The notes under the pieces were generated by a model that had not been told where the DNA came from, did not search any database, and saw nothing but the letters and a program-made list of their open reading frames with translations. A DNA stretch of 64,000 nt from a virus: UHGV virus genome UHGV-1558314. One strand, 5' to 3'. Positions 2,844 through 61,741 of this stretch are shown here, one piece after another. Position numbers and translations under genes: made by a program. Position 1 is the stretch's first letter, and each line of letters opens with the position of its first letter.

Positions 2844-3098
2844 CTAAAATGTTAACTGTAATGACTTGATATTGACGCATTCAATTTTTAACATGACAAG
2901 CTTATCATGTGCAGCCATTGCGTCATATTTGATGTTTGCAATTTCAAGCTTCTGTGCAATTTTGTATGCAGAGACGCCATCAGTAGATATGCAGATACAG
3001 TTGCCAATGACTACATTTGCTGCATCTGTTATGTTAACTTTGCATGCATTATCATTGTTATCAATGACTTCTATGCATTTGATTGAGCTAAAGTCCAT
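2844..3098 (-). CDS. Hypothetical small protein (84 aa)
   Basis: ORF track only; no motif. Confidence 0.35.
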   Translation of the reverse strand: MDFSSIKCIEVIDNNDNACKVNITDAANVVIGNCICISTDGVSAYKIAQKLEIANIKYDAMAAHDKLVMLKIECVNIKSLQLTF

Positions 3099-3111
3099 AT
3101 TGCGAATGCTT

Positions 3112-3342
3112 TTATTGTGCTGATTTTGCTACATTTGCATATACCATGCCATGACAGCATGGGCATGTCCAATATGCTTCGGGTTCTTCATATGCAGGAC
3201 CTGGTATAGGATTGCCAAGCGTCATGTGTAAATCAGAAGCTTCGATTTCTATAATAGAATTGCACATATAGCAGACCTTTCTGCCAAGTCGTTTATCTAT
3301 TTGTTGCGTAGGTGCTTTGTAGTTGTTTTCAATGATTTTCAT
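3112..3342 (-). CDS. Small zinc-ribbon-like protein (76 aa)
   Basis: CYMC ... CPCCH four-Cys pattern; preceded by AT-rich late-type promoter and AACCTCTAC leader motif. Confidence 0.5.
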   Translation of the reverse strand: MKIIENNYKAPTQQIDKRLGRKVCYMCNSIIEIEASDLHMTLGNPIPGPAYEEPEAYWTCPCCHGMVYANVAKSAQ

Positions 3343-3420
3343 AGATGTAGAGGTTTAGTATATTTGATAGTATATTATTTATAGATATATAATACTACAC
3401 ACTTGCAGATTTTGCACTTA
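3343..3420 (-). promoter_or_regulatory. Late-type AT-rich promoter (TATAAATA-like) with AACCTCTAC leader element
   Basis: Gene-sense reads ...CTATAAATAATATACTATCAAATATACTAAACCTCTACATCT-ATG. Confidence 0.35.
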
Positions 3421-7619: not shown

Positions 7620-10600
7620 TCAATTGCATGCTGAATGTCCGCAGTTGGTGCATCGAACACAGCCGTCAAACTTGACCATGTCACCACCGCATTCAGGGCA
7701 CTTTGCATACATTTTTGAGCCATCTTGAATATGCAGTTTCAATGCACGACCAATTGCTTTGCAGAATGTTCCGACAGATGCAAAGCTTTTTGCAGTTTGG
7801 TCGACAATTTCGCCAAGGTCAATACCATTGCGAAGCATCGTTGAGTATAGTCGAGTAATTGTTTGTTGCTCATCTGAACCAAGACGTTCTGATATATTGT
7901 CATAGTGCTGCAAGAATGACAAATTGTCACCAAGCTTGTAGTGCTTCTTATCAGTCTTTGTGATTGTCGTTTGTTCAATGCCTTGCAACTTGTCGAATTC
8001 ATCTTTGTCAAGTTCAAATGCAAAGATTTCATAAGGTCGACCGTCATCACAGCCTACAAGAATACACCACTTGCGCTTATACACTGACACGCAATACACT
8101 GCAGCAGGCAATACTGGTTTTCGTTTTGAGCGATGACCAGATTGCAAGATGTGCGACTTGTCTTTTGACTGCTTGTCATCTTTTACGAGAACACCTGCAC
8201 GTGAGCCGTCTCGATAAATTGTGCAGCCCTTGCAGCCAGATTTCCATGCAGTCATATAAATTTCACGAACGAGTTCTTTTGTTGCAGAGTTTGGAATGTT
8301 GACCGTTACAGAAATTGACGAGTCAATGTATTTTTGCAATGCACCTTGCAGTTTCACCTTGCCAATCCAGTCAACATCTTCAGTAGTTGCCTTGTAGTAT
8401 GGTGATTGAACAAGCAACTCATCAATGACTGCTTGTGGAGCATTTGATAGCCAAGCTTTGATACGAGACATTTCTGCTTCTGACCATTCAATGCCAGTAT
8501 CTTTGACAAGAGTAAATTTGCCATCGCCAAGCTGCAATCGTTTACAAATCCACTGCATCAATGGGTAGTGAACTACAGCATATTCAATGAACTTGTCACC
8601 AGTAGTCTCATCAATGAAGTTGATGTCAGCTTCATTATCAACTGCAGTAGGCTTGCGACGACGTTTATGCAGCGGCATAAAGACAGGTTCAATGCCAGAC
8701 GTTGTCTGAGTCATCAAAGCTGTAGTGCCTGTTGGCGCAATTGTGGTCGTGTTAATGTTTCGACGGCCAAATTGCTGATAAGTTTTGATATGCTCATCAT
8801 CAATCGGTTCAGATAGCATACGCTGTACGAACTTTGACTGCACATCTGTGTCATAGTCGAATATTGCAAATGCGCCACGAATCTTTGCTAAGTCAATCGA
8901 TGCTTCATAAGTAGCCTTTACAAGCCATTGTTGCATAGTGACTGCGAAGTCAATTGACTCTTGTGAACCATAGCGCAAGCCAAGCATTGCCATTGCATCG
9001 CCAAGTGCAAGGAAGCCCATGCCATATCTACGAGTATTTGTCAATTTGTCATAGACTTTGTGCCACAAGTCAAGTTCAGTCTTTTTGATGTCAAAGTCTT
9101 CTTTGTCTGACTGTACCTTTGCAATGATTCGTTGCACTGCTTCAATTTCAAGCTGTACAAGGTCATCCATGATGACTGCACAATCATACGTGTCTTTATA
9201 GAATGTCTCAAAGTCAAATGACGCATCAGCAGTCCAAGGATTAAGCACGTATGCAGTCAAATTGCGATGTGACAAAATGCAGCTTGCATATGCTGCAAGA
9301 GGTTGTTCACCACAATTTAATGTATTGACTACTTGCTTGTCATTGACTGCAATAAAGAAATTGTGGAAGTCTTCTACTGTACCATTGTACACATCTGCTT
9401 TGTTCATGTGACGTGTTGCAACGACTTTGACAATTGTATCACCAGTAGTGTCAATGTCTGCATATTTGCTGCAGCCACCTAATGCTGCACAAGCTTCACA
9501 GCAATATGACTGTTCACGATTGTCATAAGAGATTTCGAATTCTTTACCACAGCACTCGCATTGTTTGATAACTGTATTTCGTTCTGTTTTTACAAGCTCA
9601 TCAGTCTTCAATGCAATTGATAGCTTATCTGCGCTTGGCATATCAATTGCCCACAACGTGTCATTTGTCGCAAGGTCAATTGCATACTTGAAATCACCAT
9701 TAGCAAGTCTGAACTCATGATTTGCTGTGCAATTGATGACATGACCATCATCAAGCACAATCTGAATGATTTGTGCATTGTGTGCAGTCAATCTTGGTCG
9801 ACGCATTGTACGCACAACAAGCTTGCCATTAGCGTCAAGACAATACACTGGAATGTCTTCGCCGTTATCAGCAAGCTCTTTGAATGTCTTCAAGCCTGAG
9901 CCATCAGCAACAAGCACTTTTGTGTCACCAGTGAAGCATGGATTTGTTGAGCGCTCTTCATACATTTTGCCGTATGCTTTCGAGTTCGACTCTTCCATAA
10001 TGCGGTCCCAAAAGAATACACCAGGTTCTGCAGATGCCCATACATTATCAACAATTTTGTCAAACAATGCTTTTGCATCTGATGTCTTATGCAGCTCTTG
10101 ACCATTAGAGCCACGCCAAACATGCTCAAACTGTTGTTCTGCAAGCACTGCACGCATAAATGCATCAGTAAGCTTGATGGAAATGTTTGCGCATGTGATT
10201 TTCGTCAAGTCCTTTTTTGCATCAATGAACTTATCTGCATCAGGATGCTCAATTGACAATGACAACATCAATGCGCCACGCCTGCCATTTTGTGCAACTT
10301 CTTTTGTCGATGTTGAAAAACGTTCCATAAATGACACTACACCAGACGTCGTAACAGCACTGTTATGCACTTCTACGCCTTCTGGACGAATATGTGACAA
10401 ATCATGGCCGACACCACCACGACGTTTCATCAACTGAACTTGTTCTTCATCTATTTTGAAGATGCCGCCATATGAGTCTGCATCATTGCCTATTACATAG
10501 CAATTTGACATTGATGTGTAACCGCCAAGACCAATACCAGCCATTGGAGAACCACCAAGTACAAATCGCTTAAATGGCTCAAGCAAATATGCAAGTCGCT

Positions 10601-10841
10601 CTTTTGACAATACACGTTTGCCTGTCTGTTCTTCAAATTGTGATTCTATACGGTCAAATTCATTGACCCAGCGTTCATGCATATCAGACAATGAGTGTTC
10701 ATACAGATTGTCTTTGTCATGATGCAAGTATTTTGACATGCATATGTCAGCAGCCATTGAGTCGCCTGTAAATTCATGTGTCAGTGTAGTGTGCACTTCA
10801 GCATATTCAGGCGACCCAATTTGAATAGGACGTTTTGTCAT
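7620..10841 (-). CDS. nrdJ: Class II (adenosylcobalamin-type) ribonucleotide reductase with mini-intein and C-terminal zinc ribbon
   Basis: Motif STNP-[insert]-CGEQPL reconstitutes the NPCGEQ active-site loop; C-terminal CPECGG...CVRCTNCGH; ORF-track start at 10901 is TTG inside the promoter, true ATG (MTKRPIQ) at 10839-10841. Confidence 0.9.
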   Translation of the reverse strand: MTKRPIQIGSPEYAEVHTTLTHEFTGDSMAADICMSKYLHHDKDNLYEHSLSDMHERWVNEFDRIESQFEEQTGKRVLSKERLAYLLEPFKRFVLGGSPMAGIGLGGYTSMSNCYVIGNDADSYGGIFKIDEEQVQLMKRRGGVGHDLSHIRPEGVEVHNSAVTTSGVVSFMERFSTSTKEVAQNGRRGALMLSLSIEHPDADKFIDAKKDLTKITCANISIKLTDAFMRAVLAEQQFEHVWRGSNGQELHKTSDAKALFDKIVDNVWASAEPGVFFWDRIMEESNSKAYGKMYEERSTNPCFTGDTKVLVADGSGLKTFKELADNGEDIPVYCLDANGKLVVRTMRRPRLTAHNAQIIQIVLDDGHVINCTANHEFRLANGDFKYAIDLATNDTLWAIDMPSADKLSIALKTDELVKTERNTVIKQCECCGKEFEISYDNREQSYCCEACAALGGCSKYADIDTTGDTIVKVVATRHMNKADVYNGTVEDFHNFFIAVNDKQVVNTLNCGEQPLAAYASCILSHRNLTAYVLNPWTADASFDFETFYKDTYDCAVIMDDLVQLEIEAVQRIIAKVQSDKEDFDIKKTELDLWHKVYDKLTNTRRYGMGFLALGDAMAMLGLRYGSQESIDFAVTMQQWLVKATYEASIDLAKIRGAFAIFDYDTDVQSKFVQRMLSEPIDDEHIKTYQQFGRRNINTTTIAPTGTTALMTQTTSGIEPVFMPLHKRRRKPTAVDNEADINFIDETTGDKFIEYAVVHYPLMQWICKRLQLGDGKFTLVKDTGIEWSEAEMSRIKAWLSNAPQAVIDELLVQSPYYKATTEDVDWIGKVKLQGALQKYIDSSISVTVNIPNSATKELVREIYMTAWKSGCKGCTIYRDGSRAGVLVKDDKQSKDKSHILQSGHRSKRKPVLPAAVYCVSVYKRKWCILVGCDDGRPYEIFAFELDKDEFDKLQGIEQTTITKTDKKHYKLGDNLSFLQHYDNISERLGSDEQQTITRLYSTMLRNGIDLGEIVDQTAKSFASVGTFCKAIGRALKLHIQDGSKMYAKCPECGGDMVKFDGCVRCTNCGHSACN
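9315..9938 (-). other. Mini-intein (about 208 aa) inserted at the RNR catalytic cysteine
   Basis: Starts CFTGDTKVL, block F-like VYNGTVEDFHNFFIAVN, ends ...VVNTLN followed by +1 Cys; Cys-rich insert KQCECCGKEFEISYDNREQSYCCEAC; no LAGLIDADG domain seen. Confidence 0.7.
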
Positions 10842-11149: not shown

Positions 11150-11605
11150 TTATTGTGCTTTGCCAGTATAATAAGTGATTGCGTCAATGTAAGGCTGTTC
11201 TTTAGACATTAGCCAATCAATGCCAAATACTGTATCTTGGCGAAATCTTCGTTGTGCAATCATTTGAACTTCTATAGGCATATCTACGTCCTTGCCAAAT
11301 CTTATTGTATTTGCAAGTTCTGTGATTGCATATCTGAGAATTTTATCAGTGCTCATTGTTAATGTACTTTCCGGCAATTGCCAGTAGCGTTCTTGGAATG
11401 CTCGATTTGCTGAGTAAGTCCAAAGTTCAAGTCTTGCATTTCTGCAATCATATGAAACAATCAGACTTAATCCTTTTGTCCAGCAATGTGCTATCTTAAT
11501 GATAGGGTTGTTGTCATTGATTGATGACATTGCTTGCAGTTTTTCGAAATCTTTAACATATCTGTTATCATTCGAAAGCTGTTCCATTATTTCACCGTAA
11601 GTCAT
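11150..11605 (-). CDS. Hypothetical protein (151 aa), late-promoter class
   Basis: ORF track; AACCTCTACTACA immediately 5' of ATG. Confidence 0.6.
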   Translation of the reverse strand: MTYGEIMEQLSNDNRYVKDFEKLQAMSSINDNNPIIKIAHCWTKGLSLIVSYDCRNARLELWTYSANRAFQERYWQLPESTLTMSTDKILRYAITELANTIRFGKDVDMPIEVQMIAQRRFRQDTVFGIDWLMSKEQPYIDAITYYTGKAQ

Positions 11606-11780
11606 TGTAGTAGAGGTTAAAATATATTAATATATAATAATTATACTACAAAGTTGCCAGATTTGCACCAGAATGTATAACAAGTTCACACAAAATTACA
11701 AACAAAAACAAGCAGACTGCAATTACAGCCTGCTTGCACCAAAACAGAAAAAGATGATAACTTAACCCAAAAACCTAACT

Positions 11781-16963: not shown

Positions 16964-17420
16964 TTAAAATTTGCCATCTGCTACTTGAAAACATTGATAG
17001 CCAAGCTCTCGCCATTTAGCGACCATGGAATCGCGGTCTTCAAGCACAAATGCAATTTGTTGCAGTTCGTCTTCAGACAATGTTTCTACAAGCAATTCAG
17101 GTTTGACAAGCGTATCATGACGTTTATCACCATCTTTTCGCATAAGAATTTGCGGATTGACGATTCTGCCATCTGTATGCTGTGCAAGCCAAACTTCTGT
17201 CATCTGTCTGCAGCTTTCACGACGACCTGTGCAGAATATGATTCTGTAGCCAACTTGCTGCAAATCGCAAAGCAAGTCAAGCACAGTCATAATAGGCTTG
17301 TCTTCATAACAGTGTGCATAAAATGCATCCCCAATCTTTGTTTGATTGTTGAAGATATTTTAGACGGTCGCCAACTTTTGAAATTGTTCCGTCAATGTCG
17401 CATATGATGATATTTGCCAT
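16964..17420 (-). CDS. HAD-superfamily phosphatase interrupted by an apparent frameshift (two ORF fragments)
   Basis: N-fragment from ATG 17418-17420: MANIIICDIDGTISKVGDRLKYLQQSNKDWG... (DxDGT motif I); C-fragment 16964-17290 has IIFCTGRRE, RKDGDKR, EDRD; frames differ, shift localises to C4 run at 17329-17332. Confidence 0.6.
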
Positions 17421-17439: not shown

Positions 17440-17463
17440 GGAAGAGCTCAATTGAGCTCTTCC
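17440..17463 (-). terminator. Palindromic hairpin ggaagagctcaattgagctcttcc
   Basis: 24-nt perfect palindrome downstream of gene 17495..18367. Confidence 0.5.
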
Positions 17464-17494
17464 TGATAGTCAACTTGATAAACCTCTACGAAAA

Positions 17495-18367
17495 TCAAGC
17501 CTGACTACTTTTGTTGATTACGAGATACTTGTATCGTTCTTTGATTGTGATGTTCTTTGATTTTGCTGCCTCGAGTTCTTTACGTTCCTTGGAGGAATAG
17601 TTGAACTTGATGTAGTCGGAGAACAATTCGGGCTTATCTGCTACTTCATTGTTCTTGACTTCTTTTACAAGAGTTTGCTGAAACTCATTGATTGTAGTGA
17701 AACCAAGGAATGACTGGAACTTGTTAAGCGGAAACAACTTATCTGTGTTGTCCTCGAATGTCGGGAATTCGTCGGAATACGTAATTTCGATTTGGTCTAC
17801 GAAATATCTAAGTTTTTCCCAAGGTTCCTTGCCAATGAGGAGAATGTTCTGATGGTCAAGTTTTTCCTCGAACATTTCCAGGAGGCATTCGTATGATTTT
17901 ACGAGACGAACTCCAGGATATGTAATTGATGCAATTGAACGAGGTTTGTGAGTTGTCTTGACTTCTTTATTGTACGTTTCCTCATCAATGCAATAGATGT
18001 ATCGCTTGACCTTGTCGTATTCTTTCGGAAGATAGTTGTTGTCAAGGAATTGCTTGTCAACTACAATGAAACTGAAAGGATAGAGTTCATTGAATCGTTG
18101 ACGAAGCTGTTCTGTTGCAAGGAAGAAATGCGAGCCATCTTTTGCTGCAAATTCCATATTTGAATTGCATCCTGCATATGCAATGTATCTGTTTCGCTTC
18201 CATTTAAGGAATCGACTTACCAGATTCTTTTCGAAGATATCCTTGTATTTGAAGTTAGTGTCCCAGTACTCCTTAACAATTCCATCTTGCATTTTTCTTG
18301 ACAATTTTGAATTGTCTACCGGCCTATCAGTAAAAACTGAAGGTTTGTTTGCATTGTATAATCCCAT
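17495..18367 (-). CDS. Hypothetical Lys-rich protein (290 aa), late-promoter class
   Basis: ATG at 18365-18367 (MGLYNANKPSVF) preceded by AACCTCTACTACA; ORF-track N-terminal extension crosses the promoter. Confidence 0.7.
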   Translation of the reverse strand: MGLYNANKPSVFTDRPVDNSKLSRKMQDGIVKEYWDTNFKYKDIFEKNLVSRFLKWKRNRYIAYAGCNSNMEFAAKDGSHFFLATEQLRQRFNELYPFSFIVVDKQFLDNNYLPKEYDKVKRYIYCIDEETYNKEVKTTHKPRSIASITYPGVRLVKSYECLLEMFEEKLDHQNILLIGKEPWEKLRYFVDQIEITYSDEFPTFEDNTDKLFPLNKFQSFLGFTTINEFQQTLVKEVKNNEVADKPELFSDYIKFNYSSKERKELEAAKSKNITIKERYKYLVINKSSQA

Positions 18368-18461
18368 TGTAGTAGAGGTTTTTGTTAAATTTATTATATA
18401 TGTATATATTACAACGACAGTGCAAAATTTGCACTGTCGTAGCATAAAAGTTTACACATTT

Positions 18462-23339: not shown

Positions 23340-23470
23340 TGTTAATATTGTATTGATATTGTACAACATGCATTGCATATTTGCAATGATACAACATGCA
23401 AAATGCGCTTGCACTTTGATGCAAAGTGCTGCGTATACAACATGCATCGCGTATTCGCATTTGATGCAAT
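23340..23470 (-). repeat. Cluster of three tandem promoter-like repeat units (TTGCAN-N17-GTTGTA[CT]AAT variants)
   Basis: attgtacaacatgcattgcatatttgcaatg / atacaacatgcaaaatgcgcttgcac / gtatacaacatgcatcgcgtattcgcatttgatgc; related copies at 24515-24590 and 48250-48360. Confidence 0.55.
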
Positions 23471-25640: not shown

Positions 25641-25670
25641 ATTATACAACATACAAATGAGTTTTGCATT
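25641..25670 (-). promoter_or_regulatory. Sigma70-like promoter (-10 TATAAT variant)
   Basis: Plus attatacaac at 25641-25650, ttgcat at 25665-25670. Confidence 0.4.
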
Positions 25671-48249: not shown

Positions 48250-48360
48250 ATTGTACAACATGCAAAATGTTTTTGCACCATTTTGATACAACATGCATTG
48301 CATATTTGCAATGATGCAAAGTACGATGTACACAACATGCATTGCATATTTGCAATCATA
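48250..48360 (-). repeat. Three tandem promoter-like repeat units (about 35-40 bp each)
   Basis: attgtacaacatgcaaaatgtttttgcacc / gatacaacatgcattgcatatttgcaatg / gtacacaacatgcattgcatatttgcaatc. Confidence 0.55.
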
Positions 48361-61387: not shown

Positions 61388-61618
61388 TTATTCGAAATCC
61401 GTGTCATCTGCATTTTCATTAGGGTCATAGATAAGCCATACAAATGCTGCACAGCCAAGTATGAATAAGCCTCCGCCAATGATTGTAGTGAAGATTGAGC
61501 CAATGTAGTGTTTTACAATATCGCCAAGCGGATTCAGTGTTTCGTAACCCATCATAAATGCGACAAATACAACTATTATTGCTGCTATTGCTTTGTTTGT
61601 CGTGTTTCGTTTTATCAT
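61388..61618 (-). CDS. Small membrane protein (2 TM helices)
   Basis: AIAAIIVVFVAFMMG and IIGGGLFILGCAAFVWLI; ATG at 61616-61618 preceded by AAAACCTCTACAA. Confidence 0.5.
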   Translation of the reverse strand: MIKRNTTNKAIAAIIVVFVAFMMGYETLNPLGDIVKHYIGSIFTTIIGGGLFILGCAAFVWLIYDPNENADDTDFE

Positions 61619-61741
61619 TATTGTAGAGGTTTTAGTGTTCTGTATATTATGTTCGAATATATGGGGGCATATATTATATATAGATATATTACAACACACA
61701 AATCATTTTTGCACACTTTTATAAACCAAAATTTCACAAAA

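What the first reader, a model, noticed from the sequence alone, without database searches (positions are those of the whole stretch)
11604..11618. Conserved AACCTCTAC(T)ACA element immediately 5' of start codons in the AT-rich promoter class
Genes starting at 3342, 11605, 18367 and 61618 each have, in mRNA sense, ...AACCTCTACTACA-ATG (plus-strand tgtag(t)agaggtt). It is pyrimidine-rich, not a Shine-Dalgarno, and most other genes also end their leaders in TACA-ATG with no SD. This points to a non-SD initiation mechanism, a conserved late-promoter downstream element, or a translational-repressor site.
Basis: seen in the sequence. Interest (0 to 1): 0.5.

Follow-up and report, generated by a model that had tools for sequence, protein, structure and literature searches.

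The report
Start-codon-anchored leader motif in gut phage
A 10-base sequence (AAACCTCTAC) sits exactly four bases before the start codon of a small set of genes in a ~175 kb human-gut phage, most likely as a ribosome-loading signal for a host that does not use Shine-Dalgarno sites; its exact mirror-image copy, conserved behind one of those genes, hints at RNA-RNA control.

Summary
The motif is real, but the consensus is AAACCTCTAC-N4-ATG, not ...TACA-ATG. The 9-mer AACCTCTAC occurs 5 times in the window against 0.08 expected. Four copies lie 4 nt before the ATGs at 3342, 11605, 18367 and 61618. The claim that most leaders end in TACA-ATG is wrong (3 of 63).

The window is part of a ~175 kb human-gut jumbo myovirus, probably of Bacteroidota: 0 of 63 leaders are SD-like and there is an A peak at -14 to -12.

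The motif is the 3' end of a repeated cassette: -35 GTGCAA, 17 nt, -10 TAWWAT, then a variable AT-rich leader. It follows the start codon, not the promoter:
- its distance to the -10 box varies from 16 to 54 nt;
- one copy is intercistronic, with no promoter;
- the same promoter in front of a tRNA cluster lacks it.

It places A at -14, -13, -12, -6 and usually -3, the measured enhancer positions in Flavobacterium johnsoniae.

One antisense copy (17480-17493) directly follows the gene C stop codon and precedes its terminator. It is invariant in a relative with 77% amino-acid identity whose flanks have diverged, which suggests 5'/3' or sRNA-type pairing (untested).

Closest known: T4-type PeSL cassettes. 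I rate it a new variant of a known kind.

The parts
3347..3356 (-). Leader motif copy A: AAACCTCTAC, then ATCT, then the ATG at 3340-3342 (gene A, 76 aa, 3112-3342)
   Evidence: gene call confirmed by L040
11610..11619 (-). Leader motif copy B: TAACCTCTAC, then TACA, then the ATG at 11603-11605 (gene B, 151 aa, 11150-11605). This is the site of the finding.
   Evidence: unchanged in five strain variants
18372..18381 (-). Leader motif copy C: AAACCTCTAC, then TACA, then the ATG at 18365-18367 (gene C, 290 aa, 17495-18367)
   Evidence: conserved in the 77% aa relative L027
61623..61632 (-). Leader motif copy D: AAACCTCTAC, then AATA, then the ATG at 61616-61618 (gene D, 76 aa, 61388-61618)
   Evidence: 76-aa gene call in L042
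3389..3417 (-). Promoter-like core of cassette A: -35 GTGCAA, 17 nt, -10 TATTAT
   Evidence: sequence match only; activity not tested
11640..11668 (-). Promoter-like core of cassette B: GTGCAA, 17 nt, TATAAT. An upstream terminator hairpin lies at 11708-11737.
18406..18434 (-). Promoter-like core of cassette C: GTGCAA, 17 nt, TAATAT
61686..61714 (-). Promoter-like core of cassette D: GTGCAA, 17 nt, TAATAT, followed by a 53-nt leader before the motif
18414..18440 (-). 11-bp inverted repeat ACGACAGTGCA-AATTT-TGCACTGTCGT overlapping the -35 box of cassette C. The stem changes in a compensatory way in L027 and L038, and shows a G-U pair in the IMG/VR relative.
17480..17493 (-). Anti-motif island. 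The - strand reads TTTCGTAGAGGTTT, starting 1 nt after the gene C stop codon. GTAGAGGTTT is the perfect complement of AAACCTCTAC. It is the only antisense copy in about 125 kb examined.
17440..17463 (-). Terminator-like hairpin GGAAGAGCTC-AATT-GAGCTCTTCC, 16 nt downstream of the anti-motif, at the 3' end of the gene C transcript

Best explanation
AAACCUCUAC-N4-AUG is an mRNA-level element. It is the translation-initiation module at the 3' end of a repeated promoter-leader cassette, in a ~175 kb human-gut phage whose host (probably Bacteroidota) does not use Shine-Dalgarno pairing.

The cassette is: a stem-loop or terminator; a -35 GTGCAA box; 17 nt; a -10 TAWWAT box; an AT-rich leader of variable length; the motif; and the start codon.

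The fixed 4-nt register places adenines at -14, -13, -12 and -6, and at -3 in most copies. These are the positions that raise SD-independent initiation in Bacteroidia. The leader is G-free and predicted to be unstructured.

The invariant pyrimidine core CCUCUAC is not explained by those rules. I infer it is kept because it pairs with the conserved complementary sequence GUAGAGGUUU in the 3'UTR of gene C. That RNA could be the full-length mRNA or a processed fragment made of the seed plus the terminator. Pairing would occlude the initiation region, giving auto-regulation of gene C and possibly cross-regulation of the other class members.

Shown here: anchoring to the start codon, independence from the promoter, sequence constraint, and conservation of the complement. 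Inferred: the effect on translation and any pairing in vivo.
For: Fixed register. The spacer is 4 nt at A, B, C, D (window), E and F (IMG/VR relative), E2 and L027-C, although its sequence varies (ATCT, TACA, AATA, AACA). The -10-to-motif distance is 16, 20, 24, 24, 27, 32 and 53 nt.

Independence from the promoter. E2 is intercistronic, 22 nt after the stop codon of gene E, with no promoter. The same GTGCAA-17-TATTAT promoter in front of 7 tRNA genes lacks the motif. Window promoters at 25641 and 23386 also lack it.

Sequence constraint. There are 0 differences in 60 motif positions against 36 in 366 flanking cassette positions in orthologous comparisons (one-sided Fisher p = 0.003). An unbiased orthologue test shows the motif kept in the 77% aa relative.

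Host-type translation. 0 of 63 leaders are SD-like, A frequency is 0.57, 0.63 and 0.48 at -14, -13 and -12, and G is depleted. A at -3, -6, -12 and -13 enhances translation in F. johnsoniae (PMC6847099). MCP relatives infect Chryseobacterium, Tenacibaculum, Flavobacterium and Prevotella. The samples are human gut.

Accessibility. Predicted P(unpaired) of the motif is 0.56-0.99.

Complement. There is a unique exact 10-nt antisense copy directly after the gene C stop codon. It forms a 14-of-14 invariant island between the window and L027/L088, while the adjacent terminator and spacer have diverged. Motif and complement are both present in the window lineage and in L027, and both absent in six lineages at 43-51% identity. 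The duplex energy is -12.8 kcal/mol, and the pairing is part of the MFE of the window's full-length C mRNA with P about 0.88.
Against: - There are no expression, TSS or ribosome data. The host is inferred, not identified.
- 56 of 63 genes, including the major capsid gene, initiate without the motif, so it is not required for translation.
- In F. johnsoniae, replacing -14..-11 with UCCC lowered expression by 90%, so C at -11 and -10 is not obviously favourable.
- Relatives at 45-51% identity keep the promoter boxes but not the motif.
- The pairing idea rests on two lineages, without covariation.
- In L027 the 5'/3' duplex is not in the predicted ensemble (+4.3 kcal/mol above MFE).
- The four extra conserved bases (UUUC) of the 3' island are not explained by pairing.
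- No promoter for a separate sRNA is visible upstream of the anti-motif.
- About 50 kb of the genome was not examined.
Confidence: 0.5

Rival explanations
1. The motif exists mainly as the target ('seed match') of a phage regulatory RNA derived from the 3' end of the gene C transcript (GUAGAGGUUU seed plus terminator hairpin). This RNA would shut off, or time, translation of a small regulon of cassette genes. Any ribosome-enhancing effect would be incidental.
For: - A unique, conserved, exact complement sits in a seed-plus-terminator arrangement.
- The 9-of-10 variants at internal motif positions (C4 to U twice, A9 to G) keep pairing as G-U.
- Motif and anti-motif co-occur across lineages.
- The motif covers -14..-5, inside the 30S footprint.
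Against: - It does not explain the strictly fixed 4-nt register.
- Only two lineages carry the pair, and there is no covariation.
- There is no internal promoter and no Rfam family.
- 8 of the 10 possible transitions in the motif would preserve pairing anyway, so the G-U argument is weak.
- duplexfold ranks class members 1, 3, 4 and 9 of 63, which is not exclusive.
Confidence: 0.2
2. The motif is the operator of a phage- or host-encoded RNA-binding translational repressor or activator (working like T4 RegA, or like gp32/gp43 operators) that controls a set of early mRNAs.
For: - The same sequence sits at a fixed position next to the AUG on several unrelated mRNAs, including an intercistronic one.
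- The sequence is strictly constrained.
Against: - No candidate protein was identified, and no RegA-like hit appeared among the proteins scanned. The scan was incomplete.
- It does not explain the conserved complement behind gene C.
Confidence: 0.12
3. The 10-mer has no function of its own. It is linker homology kept uniform by recombination or gene conversion between repeated cassettes, as in PeSL-mediated shuffling.
For: - A gene A presence/absence polymorphism has its junction inside the motif: AAACCTCT|GCAAT-ATG in L045 and L086.
- Genes E and E2 are flanked by near-identical copies of the motif plus the first codons.
- The upstream part of cassette A is 80% identical to that of cassette E.
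Against: - The AT-rich leaders and the 4-nt spacers next to the motif differ freely in sequence and length, while the 10-mer does not.
- 10 nt is too short to drive homologous recombination by itself.
- The antisense copy is conserved outside any cassette.
Confidence: 0.1
4. It is a DNA element: a promoter-downstream or initiator element, or the site of a DNA-binding protein (roadblock or repressor) that recognises the 10-bp site in either orientation.
For: - In duplex DNA the copy behind gene C is simply the same site inverted.
- All copies are intergenic.
Against: - The distance to the promoter varies from 16 to 54 nt.
- It is present without a promoter (E2), and absent from the same promoter in front of the tRNA genes.
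- 7-8 sense copies are all locked to the ATG, against one antisense copy.
- The site is not palindromic.
Confidence: 0.05

Closest known systems
PeSL (promoter-early stem-loop) regulatory cassettes of T4-type phages (Arbiol et al. 2010, PMC2839356; Comeau et al. 2014, PMC4122927)
   Same: Both are repeated intergenic cassettes of about 60-100 bp. Each has a sigma70-like -35/-10 promoter, an AT-rich part, a stem-loop that may overlap the -35 box, and a conserved ribosome-binding element plus start codon at the 3' end. Both precede small ORFans, and both coincide with gene insertion/deletion junctions between close strains.
   Different: The host type and phage lineage differ. The 3' element here is not a Shine-Dalgarno sequence but a pyrimidine-rich AAACCUCUAC at a fixed 4-nt spacing. 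A strong stem-loop is evident at cassettes C and B only. Promoter and terminator activity and mini-circle formation were not tested. PeSLs are not known to have a complementary copy in a 3'UTR.
Kozak-like, SD-independent initiation in Bacteroidia (Baez et al. 2019, PMC6847099; Jha et al. 2021, PMC7797042)
   Same: There is no SD in any leader, and an A peak at -14 to -12. The motif has A at -14, -13, -12 and -6, and mostly at -3. The leader is unstructured.
   Different: The known determinants are individual adenines, not a 10-nt word. The invariant CCUCU core has no counterpart in those studies, and C in -14..-11 was deleterious in one construct.
5'UTR-3'UTR pairing within one bacterial mRNA (S. 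aureus icaR, PMC3868564; B. subtilis hbs, PMC5737220) and 3'UTR-derived sRNAs
   Same: A short 3'UTR sequence just upstream of the terminator is perfectly complementary to the ribosome-binding region of the same mRNA. For the window's gene C mRNA, this pairing is in the predicted MFE structure.
   Different: In icaR an anti-SD-like 3' motif masks a real SD. Here the polarity is reversed: the leader resembles the anti-SD (CCUCU against CCUCC) and the 3'UTR element is SD-like (GAGGU). The same target also occurs on at least five other mRNAs. Nothing has been tested experimentally.
T4 RegA translational operator sites
   Same: The same short sequence sits next to the AUG of several early-type mRNAs.
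   Different: The sequence is unrelated to RegA sites, and no RegA homologue was found among the proteins scanned.

Membership tests
Shine-Dalgarno sequence | Purine-rich element complementary to the CCUCC anti-SD at the 3' end of 16S rRNA, 5-10 nt upstream of the start codon | tested here: not met
   The motif is pyrimidine-rich and has the same sense as the anti-SD (CCUCU against CCUCC; PMC7797042). 0 of 63 leaders contain GGAG, GAGG or AGGA.
Bacteroidia Kozak-like initiation region | Adenines at -3, -6, -12 and -13 (A run at -14..-11) upstream of the start codon | tested here: met
   AAACCUCUAC-N4-AUG gives A at -14, -13, -12 and -6 in all copies except B, which has U at -14. A at -3 is present in all spacers except ATCT at site A.
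Bacteroidia Kozak-like initiation region | Weak secondary structure around the start codon | tested here: met
   Predicted leader MFEs are -1.6 to -4.8 kcal/mol, and P(unpaired) of the motif is 0.56-0.99. This is prediction only.
Bacteroidia Kozak-like initiation region | Measured enhancement of translation in a Bacteroidota host | not testable with these tools
   This needs reporter fusions or ribosome profiling.
PeSL-type regulatory cassette | Repeated sigma70-like -35/-10 promoter in intergenic regions | tested here: met
   GTGCAA, exactly 17 nt, TAWWAT in all cassettes A-F and in L027. This is a sequence match only.
PeSL-type regulatory cassette | Associated stem-loop acting as terminator or attenuator | tested here: inconclusive
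   Cassette C has an 11-bp stem overlapping the -35 box, with compensatory changes in L027 and L038. Cassette B has a terminator 40 nt upstream. Cassettes A, D, E and F show only 3-4 bp stems.
PeSL-type regulatory cassette | Conserved ribosome-binding element and start codon at the 3' extremity | tested here: met
   AAACCTCTAC-N4-ATG takes the place of the SD.
PeSL-type regulatory cassette | Flanks ORFans, and marks insertion/deletion junctions between close relatives | tested here: met
   Genes A, B, C, D, E and F have no known function. Gene A is absent from L045 and L086, with the junction inside the motif. Genes E and E2 are flanked by a duplicated motif.
PeSL-type regulatory cassette | Demonstrated promoter or terminator activity and recombination mini-circles; T4-type phage | not testable with these tools
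   These are experimental criteria. The phage is not a Tevenvirinae-type phage; its MCP is nearest to the PAU, MA9V and PTm1 jumbo phages at 33-37% identity.
3'UTR-derived sRNA / 5'-3' UTR pairing | Conserved single-stranded seed complementary to the target initiation region, upstream of an intrinsic terminator | tested here: met
   GUAGAGGUUU is an exact 10-nt complement. The surrounding island is 14 of 14 invariant against L027 and L088 while the flanks diverge. A terminator hairpin lies 16 nt downstream.
3'UTR-derived sRNA / 5'-3' UTR pairing | Compensatory co-variation of seed and target across lineages | tested here: inconclusive
   I found only co-occurrence (both present or both absent), with no lineage carrying a changed pair.
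3'UTR-derived sRNA / 5'-3' UTR pairing | A stable RNA species, and a regulatory effect of the pairing | not testable with these tools
   No transcriptome data were available. Folding supports cis pairing in the window (P about 0.88) but not in L027.
Rfam cis-regulatory or sRNA families | Match to a curated covariance model | tested here: not met
   No hits at gathering threshold in the whole window.

The most novel reading that the evidence does not exclude
A Bacteroidota jumbo phage marks a small regulon of cassette genes with an anti-SD look-alike (ACCUCU) placed where an SD would normally sit. It controls them through an SD-like seed (GUAGAGGUUU) carried in the 3'UTR of one regulon member. 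That seed would act either as a 3'UTR-derived sRNA working in trans on at least 6 mRNAs, or by 5'-3' closure of its own mRNA. This would be a phage-encoded RNA-RNA translational switch in a phylum where SD/anti-SD pairing is not used and Hfq is absent.
Probability: 0.22. Interest if true: 0.7.

Novelty: new variant of a known kind. Interest (0 to 1): 0.45.

Why it matters
Translation initiation without Shine-Dalgarno pairing is understood only as a set of single-nucleotide preferences, and almost nothing is known about how phages of gut Bacteroidota organise gene expression.

This element offers two things. First, it is a compact, strongly constrained 10-nt leader word locked to the start codon, which could be tested directly as a portable initiation signal for Bacteroides engineering. 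Second, it is a concrete and falsifiable candidate for RNA-RNA control: a leader motif paired with a conserved complement in a 3'UTR.

It also extends the concept of PeSL-type 'mobile regulatory cassettes' from T4-type coliphages to an unrelated gut jumbo phage. There the cassette ends in a non-SD element and coincides with gene gain and loss junctions.

Tried and rejected
- Close phage relatives: megablast of 10 kb against GenBank phages found nothing. Only a protein-level search placed the phage.
- Exact 16-mer scan: besides the IMG/VR relative, all hits were chance matches in unrelated coding sequence. The same was true of the composite-pattern scan.
- Sigma70 consensus scanner: no enrichment (29 sites against 24.6 expected), and it missed the GTGCAA -35 box. 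My first reading of the promoter (TGTARTAT box with 11 or 14 nt spacing) was replaced by GTGCAA, 17 nt, TAWWAT, which fits all cassettes.
- Bacteroidetes TTTG / TAnnTTTG promoter reading: fits only some cassettes, so I left it open.
- Leaderless-mRNA or phage-RNAP promoter reading of the motif (AR9/phiKZ-like, recalled from memory): rejected because of the intercistronic copy and the consistent upstream -35/-10 boxes.
- Analogous motif in distant relatives: L031 and L038 share AACTTCAAA in their leaders, but at variable spacing and with no 3'UTR complement.
- Chryseobacterium phage MA9V-2, first 50 kb: no start-anchored word. It uses TAnnTTTG-type promoters.
- Gene C function: no Pfam, PHROG or PDB match. 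The AlphaFold model was too poor (pLDDT 58) to search with.
- 6-nt indel at site D against the relative: I first thought it showed selection on spacing, but it lies after the ATG and is uninformative.
- Extension of pairing beyond 10 nt between the gene C leader and 3'UTR: none in either lineage (read directly from the sequences).
- Walking the L027-like lineage: produced only 5 kb and no further cassettes.
- Complementarity to 16S helix 22 (GUAGAGG): recalled from memory only and not tested; I think it unlikely because that segment is buried in a helix.

Full report
**What the window is.** Nearly all genes are on the - strand. The large ORFs match a major capsid protein, tail sheath, portal, prohead protease and ribonucleotide reductase. 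No close phage exists in GenBank. The capsid protein is 33-37% identical to those of jumbo phages of Chryseobacterium, Tenacibaculum and Sphingomonas (PAU), and more distantly to Prevotella Lak phages. The window is 100% identical to a 175,395-bp contig from ENA assembly ERZ27260853; another contig carrying the same 21-kb stretch comes from a ZeeviD-labelled (ZEEV15) assembly, and related loci are labelled human gut metagenome. It is 94-95% identical to IMG/VR contig UViG_3300045988_152288 of 174,628 bp. None of 63 called genes has an SD-like leader. G is depleted in leaders (12% against 20%), and A peaks at -14 to -12. These are the signatures described for Bacteroidia (PMC6847099). A Bacteroidota host is therefore probable, but it is inferred.

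**Checking the observation.** The four sites exist as described. The conserved word is AAACCTCTAC (TAACCTCTAC at 11605), followed by any four bases (ATCT, TACA, TACA, AATA) and then ATG.
- The 10-mer occurs 4 times against 0.022 expected, and the 9-mer 5 times against 0.084.
- All copies with at most one mismatch are intergenic, with a clean gap to the 2-mismatch background.
- A conservative column-shuffle test gives 3 of 2000.
- The statement that most other leaders end in TACA-ATG is wrong: 3 of 63.

**Anatomy.** Each site is the 3' end of a composite cassette. It consists of GTGCAA, exactly 17 nt (ending TTG or TAG), TAWWAT, an AT-rich stretch, the motif, 4 nt, and ATG. The same -35/17/-10 arrangement underlies the more frequent 'TGTTGTACAAT' promoters, so this is one sigma70-like promoter family (sequence match only). 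The motif cassettes are the subset with a long AT-rich leader. Cassette C has an 11-bp stem overlapping its -35 box, and the arms change in a compensatory way in L027 and L038. Cassette B follows a canonical terminator.

**Census.** I walked the IMG/VR relative and the ENA contig to cover about 125 of 175 kb. This added:
- two more perfect cassettes: E (L022 8805) and F (L049 5583);
- E2, an intercistronic copy 22 nt after the stop codon of gene E, with no promoter (AAATCTCTAC-AACA-ATG);
- three variants: AAACCTCTGC with 3 nt spacing; AAATCTCTAC with 2 nt spacing; and a degenerate AAATCTCATT with 4 nt spacing in front of a helicase gene.

**Promoter element or mRNA element?** Four results point to the mRNA.
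1. The distance from the -10 box to the motif is 16-54 nt, while the motif-to-ATG distance is constant.
2. E2 has the motif without a promoter.
3. The same promoter (GTGCAA-17-TATTAT) in front of a cluster of seven tRNA genes has no motif. Two further promoters of this type in the window also lack it.
4. In orthologous comparisons there are 0 changes in 60 motif positions against 36 in 366 elsewhere in the cassettes (p = 0.003).

An unbiased orthologue test with gene C gave the following. The motif, its spacing and the hairpin are kept in a relative with 77% amino-acid identity (L027). Relatives at 43-51% identity keep the promoter boxes but not the motif. The element is therefore constrained but specific to this lineage. 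The first 50 kb of Chryseobacterium phage MA9V-2 show nothing comparable.

**Why the register matters.** With a 4-nt spacer, the motif puts A at -14, -13, -12 and -6, and most spacers add A at -3. In Flavobacterium johnsoniae, A at -3, -6, -12 and -13 correlates with ribosome density, and mutating them lowers reporter output (PMC6847099). The leaders are G-free, and the motif is predicted to be accessible. This gives a grounded reason for the fixed spacing: the element is an SD-independent initiation module. It does not explain the invariant CCUCUAC core. C in -14..-11 was even deleterious in one construct of that study.

**The complement.** The only antisense copy in 125 kb lies 1 nt after the gene C stop codon (17480-17493; the - strand reads UUUCGUAGAGGUUU), 16 nt before the gene C terminator hairpin (17440-17463).
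- In L027 and L088 (77% aa identity) these 14 nt are invariant, while the spacer and terminator sequence have diverged.
- Motif and complement co-occur: both are present in these lineages, and both are absent in the distant ones.
- The 10-bp duplex is worth -12.8 kcal/mol. It is in the MFE of the window's full-length gene C mRNA (P about 0.88), but not in that of L027 (+4.3 kcal/mol).
- No internal promoter precedes it, and Rfam has no match.

The layout resembles 5'/3'-UTR pairing in icaR (PMC3868564) and 3'UTR-derived sRNAs, with one curiosity. The leader word resembles the anti-SD (CCUCU against CCUCC), and the 3' word is SD-like. I regard functional pairing as a real but unproven possibility (about 0.2-0.3).

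**Comparison with known systems.** The architecture and genomic behaviour match PeSL cassettes of T4-type phages (PMC2839356). Both have a repeated sigma70-like promoter, a stem-loop, and a ribosome-binding element plus ATG at the 3' end. Both sit in front of ORFans and at indel junctions. Here, gene A is missing from L045 and L086 with the junction inside the motif, and genes E and E2 carry a duplicated motif plus their first codons. The differences are the phage lineage, the non-SD 3' element, and the conserved complement. It is not an SD (tested and not met), not a promoter-downstream element, and not a known Rfam RNA.

**Verdict.** This is a genuine, constrained, start-codon-anchored leader element. 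It is best read as the translation-initiation module of a PeSL-like cassette in a Bacteroidota gut phage, with a credible but untested RNA-pairing partner. I rate it a new variant of a known kind, of moderate interest.

Noticed in passing
window 18414-18440 (- strand); L027 ~375-401; L038 ~1290-1320: A palindrome centred on TGCAAATTTTGCA overlaps the -35 box of cassette C. It keeps its symmetry through compensatory arm changes in relatives at 77% and 45% identity, and through a G-U pair in the IMG/VR strain. It looks like an RNA hairpin (terminator or attenuator) or an operator.
   Followed up: partly
window 16964-17420 (- strand), frameshift near 17325-17339: The polynucleotide-kinase-type HAD phosphatase gene is split. 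The ATG at 17420 opens MANIIICDIDGT..., and the frame then shifts at a GGGG run into the 108-aa ORF that gene callers report. The sequence is identical in contigs from two samples, so this is a pseudogene, a shared assembly error or programmed frameshifting.
   Followed up: no
window 61647-61674 (- strand); also L049 ~1760-1800: The long leader of cassette D contains a palindrome ATATATG-CCCC-CATATAT and a 7-codon mini-ORF (MPPYIRT*; MSSYIRT* in the relative). The ...CATATATTCGAACATAAT part recurs in the leader of a helicase gene (cassette G).
   Followed up: no
L086 7454-9154 (IMG/VR relative, about 4-5.5 kb beyond the window's coordinate-1 edge; same gene-free gap at L040 16491-18391): A cluster of 7 tRNA genes (Gln, Pro, Leu, Ser, Glu, Thr, Gly), plus an ARAGORN tmRNA-like call, is driven by the same GTGCAA-17-TATTAT promoter type.
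   Followed up: partly
window 3098-3356 compared with L045 10330-10400 and L086 340-410: Strain polymorphism: the 76-aa gene A is absent in two other strains. There the cassette is fused directly to the next gene (AAACCTCT|GCAAT-ATGGAC).
   Followed up: partly
L040 18950-19047 / L086 9900-10000: Tandem direct repeats (GCAATTGATATAGAAT, 2-3 copies) lie between a TTGTAGTACAAT promoter and a 239-aa gene whose leader carries the 2-nt-spaced motif variant. They look like operator sites.
   Followed up: no
window 7620-10841 (- strand): The ribonucleotide reductase large subunit (1073 aa) has a weak precomputed Pfam Intein_splicing hit, so it may carry an intein.
   Followed up: no
window 23356-23414 and 48272-48320 (- strand): Near-identical stretches of about 45 nt (...tgcaaatatgcaatgcatgttgta...) recur upstream of two genes. 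This appears to be another repeated promoter/operator module of this genome.
   Followed up: no
L031 8976 and 9983; L038 1332: Relatives at 45-47% identity share a different leader word, AACTTCAAA, in front of two or more genes, but at variable distance from the ATG. It may be an ancestral or parallel leader element.
   Followed up: partly
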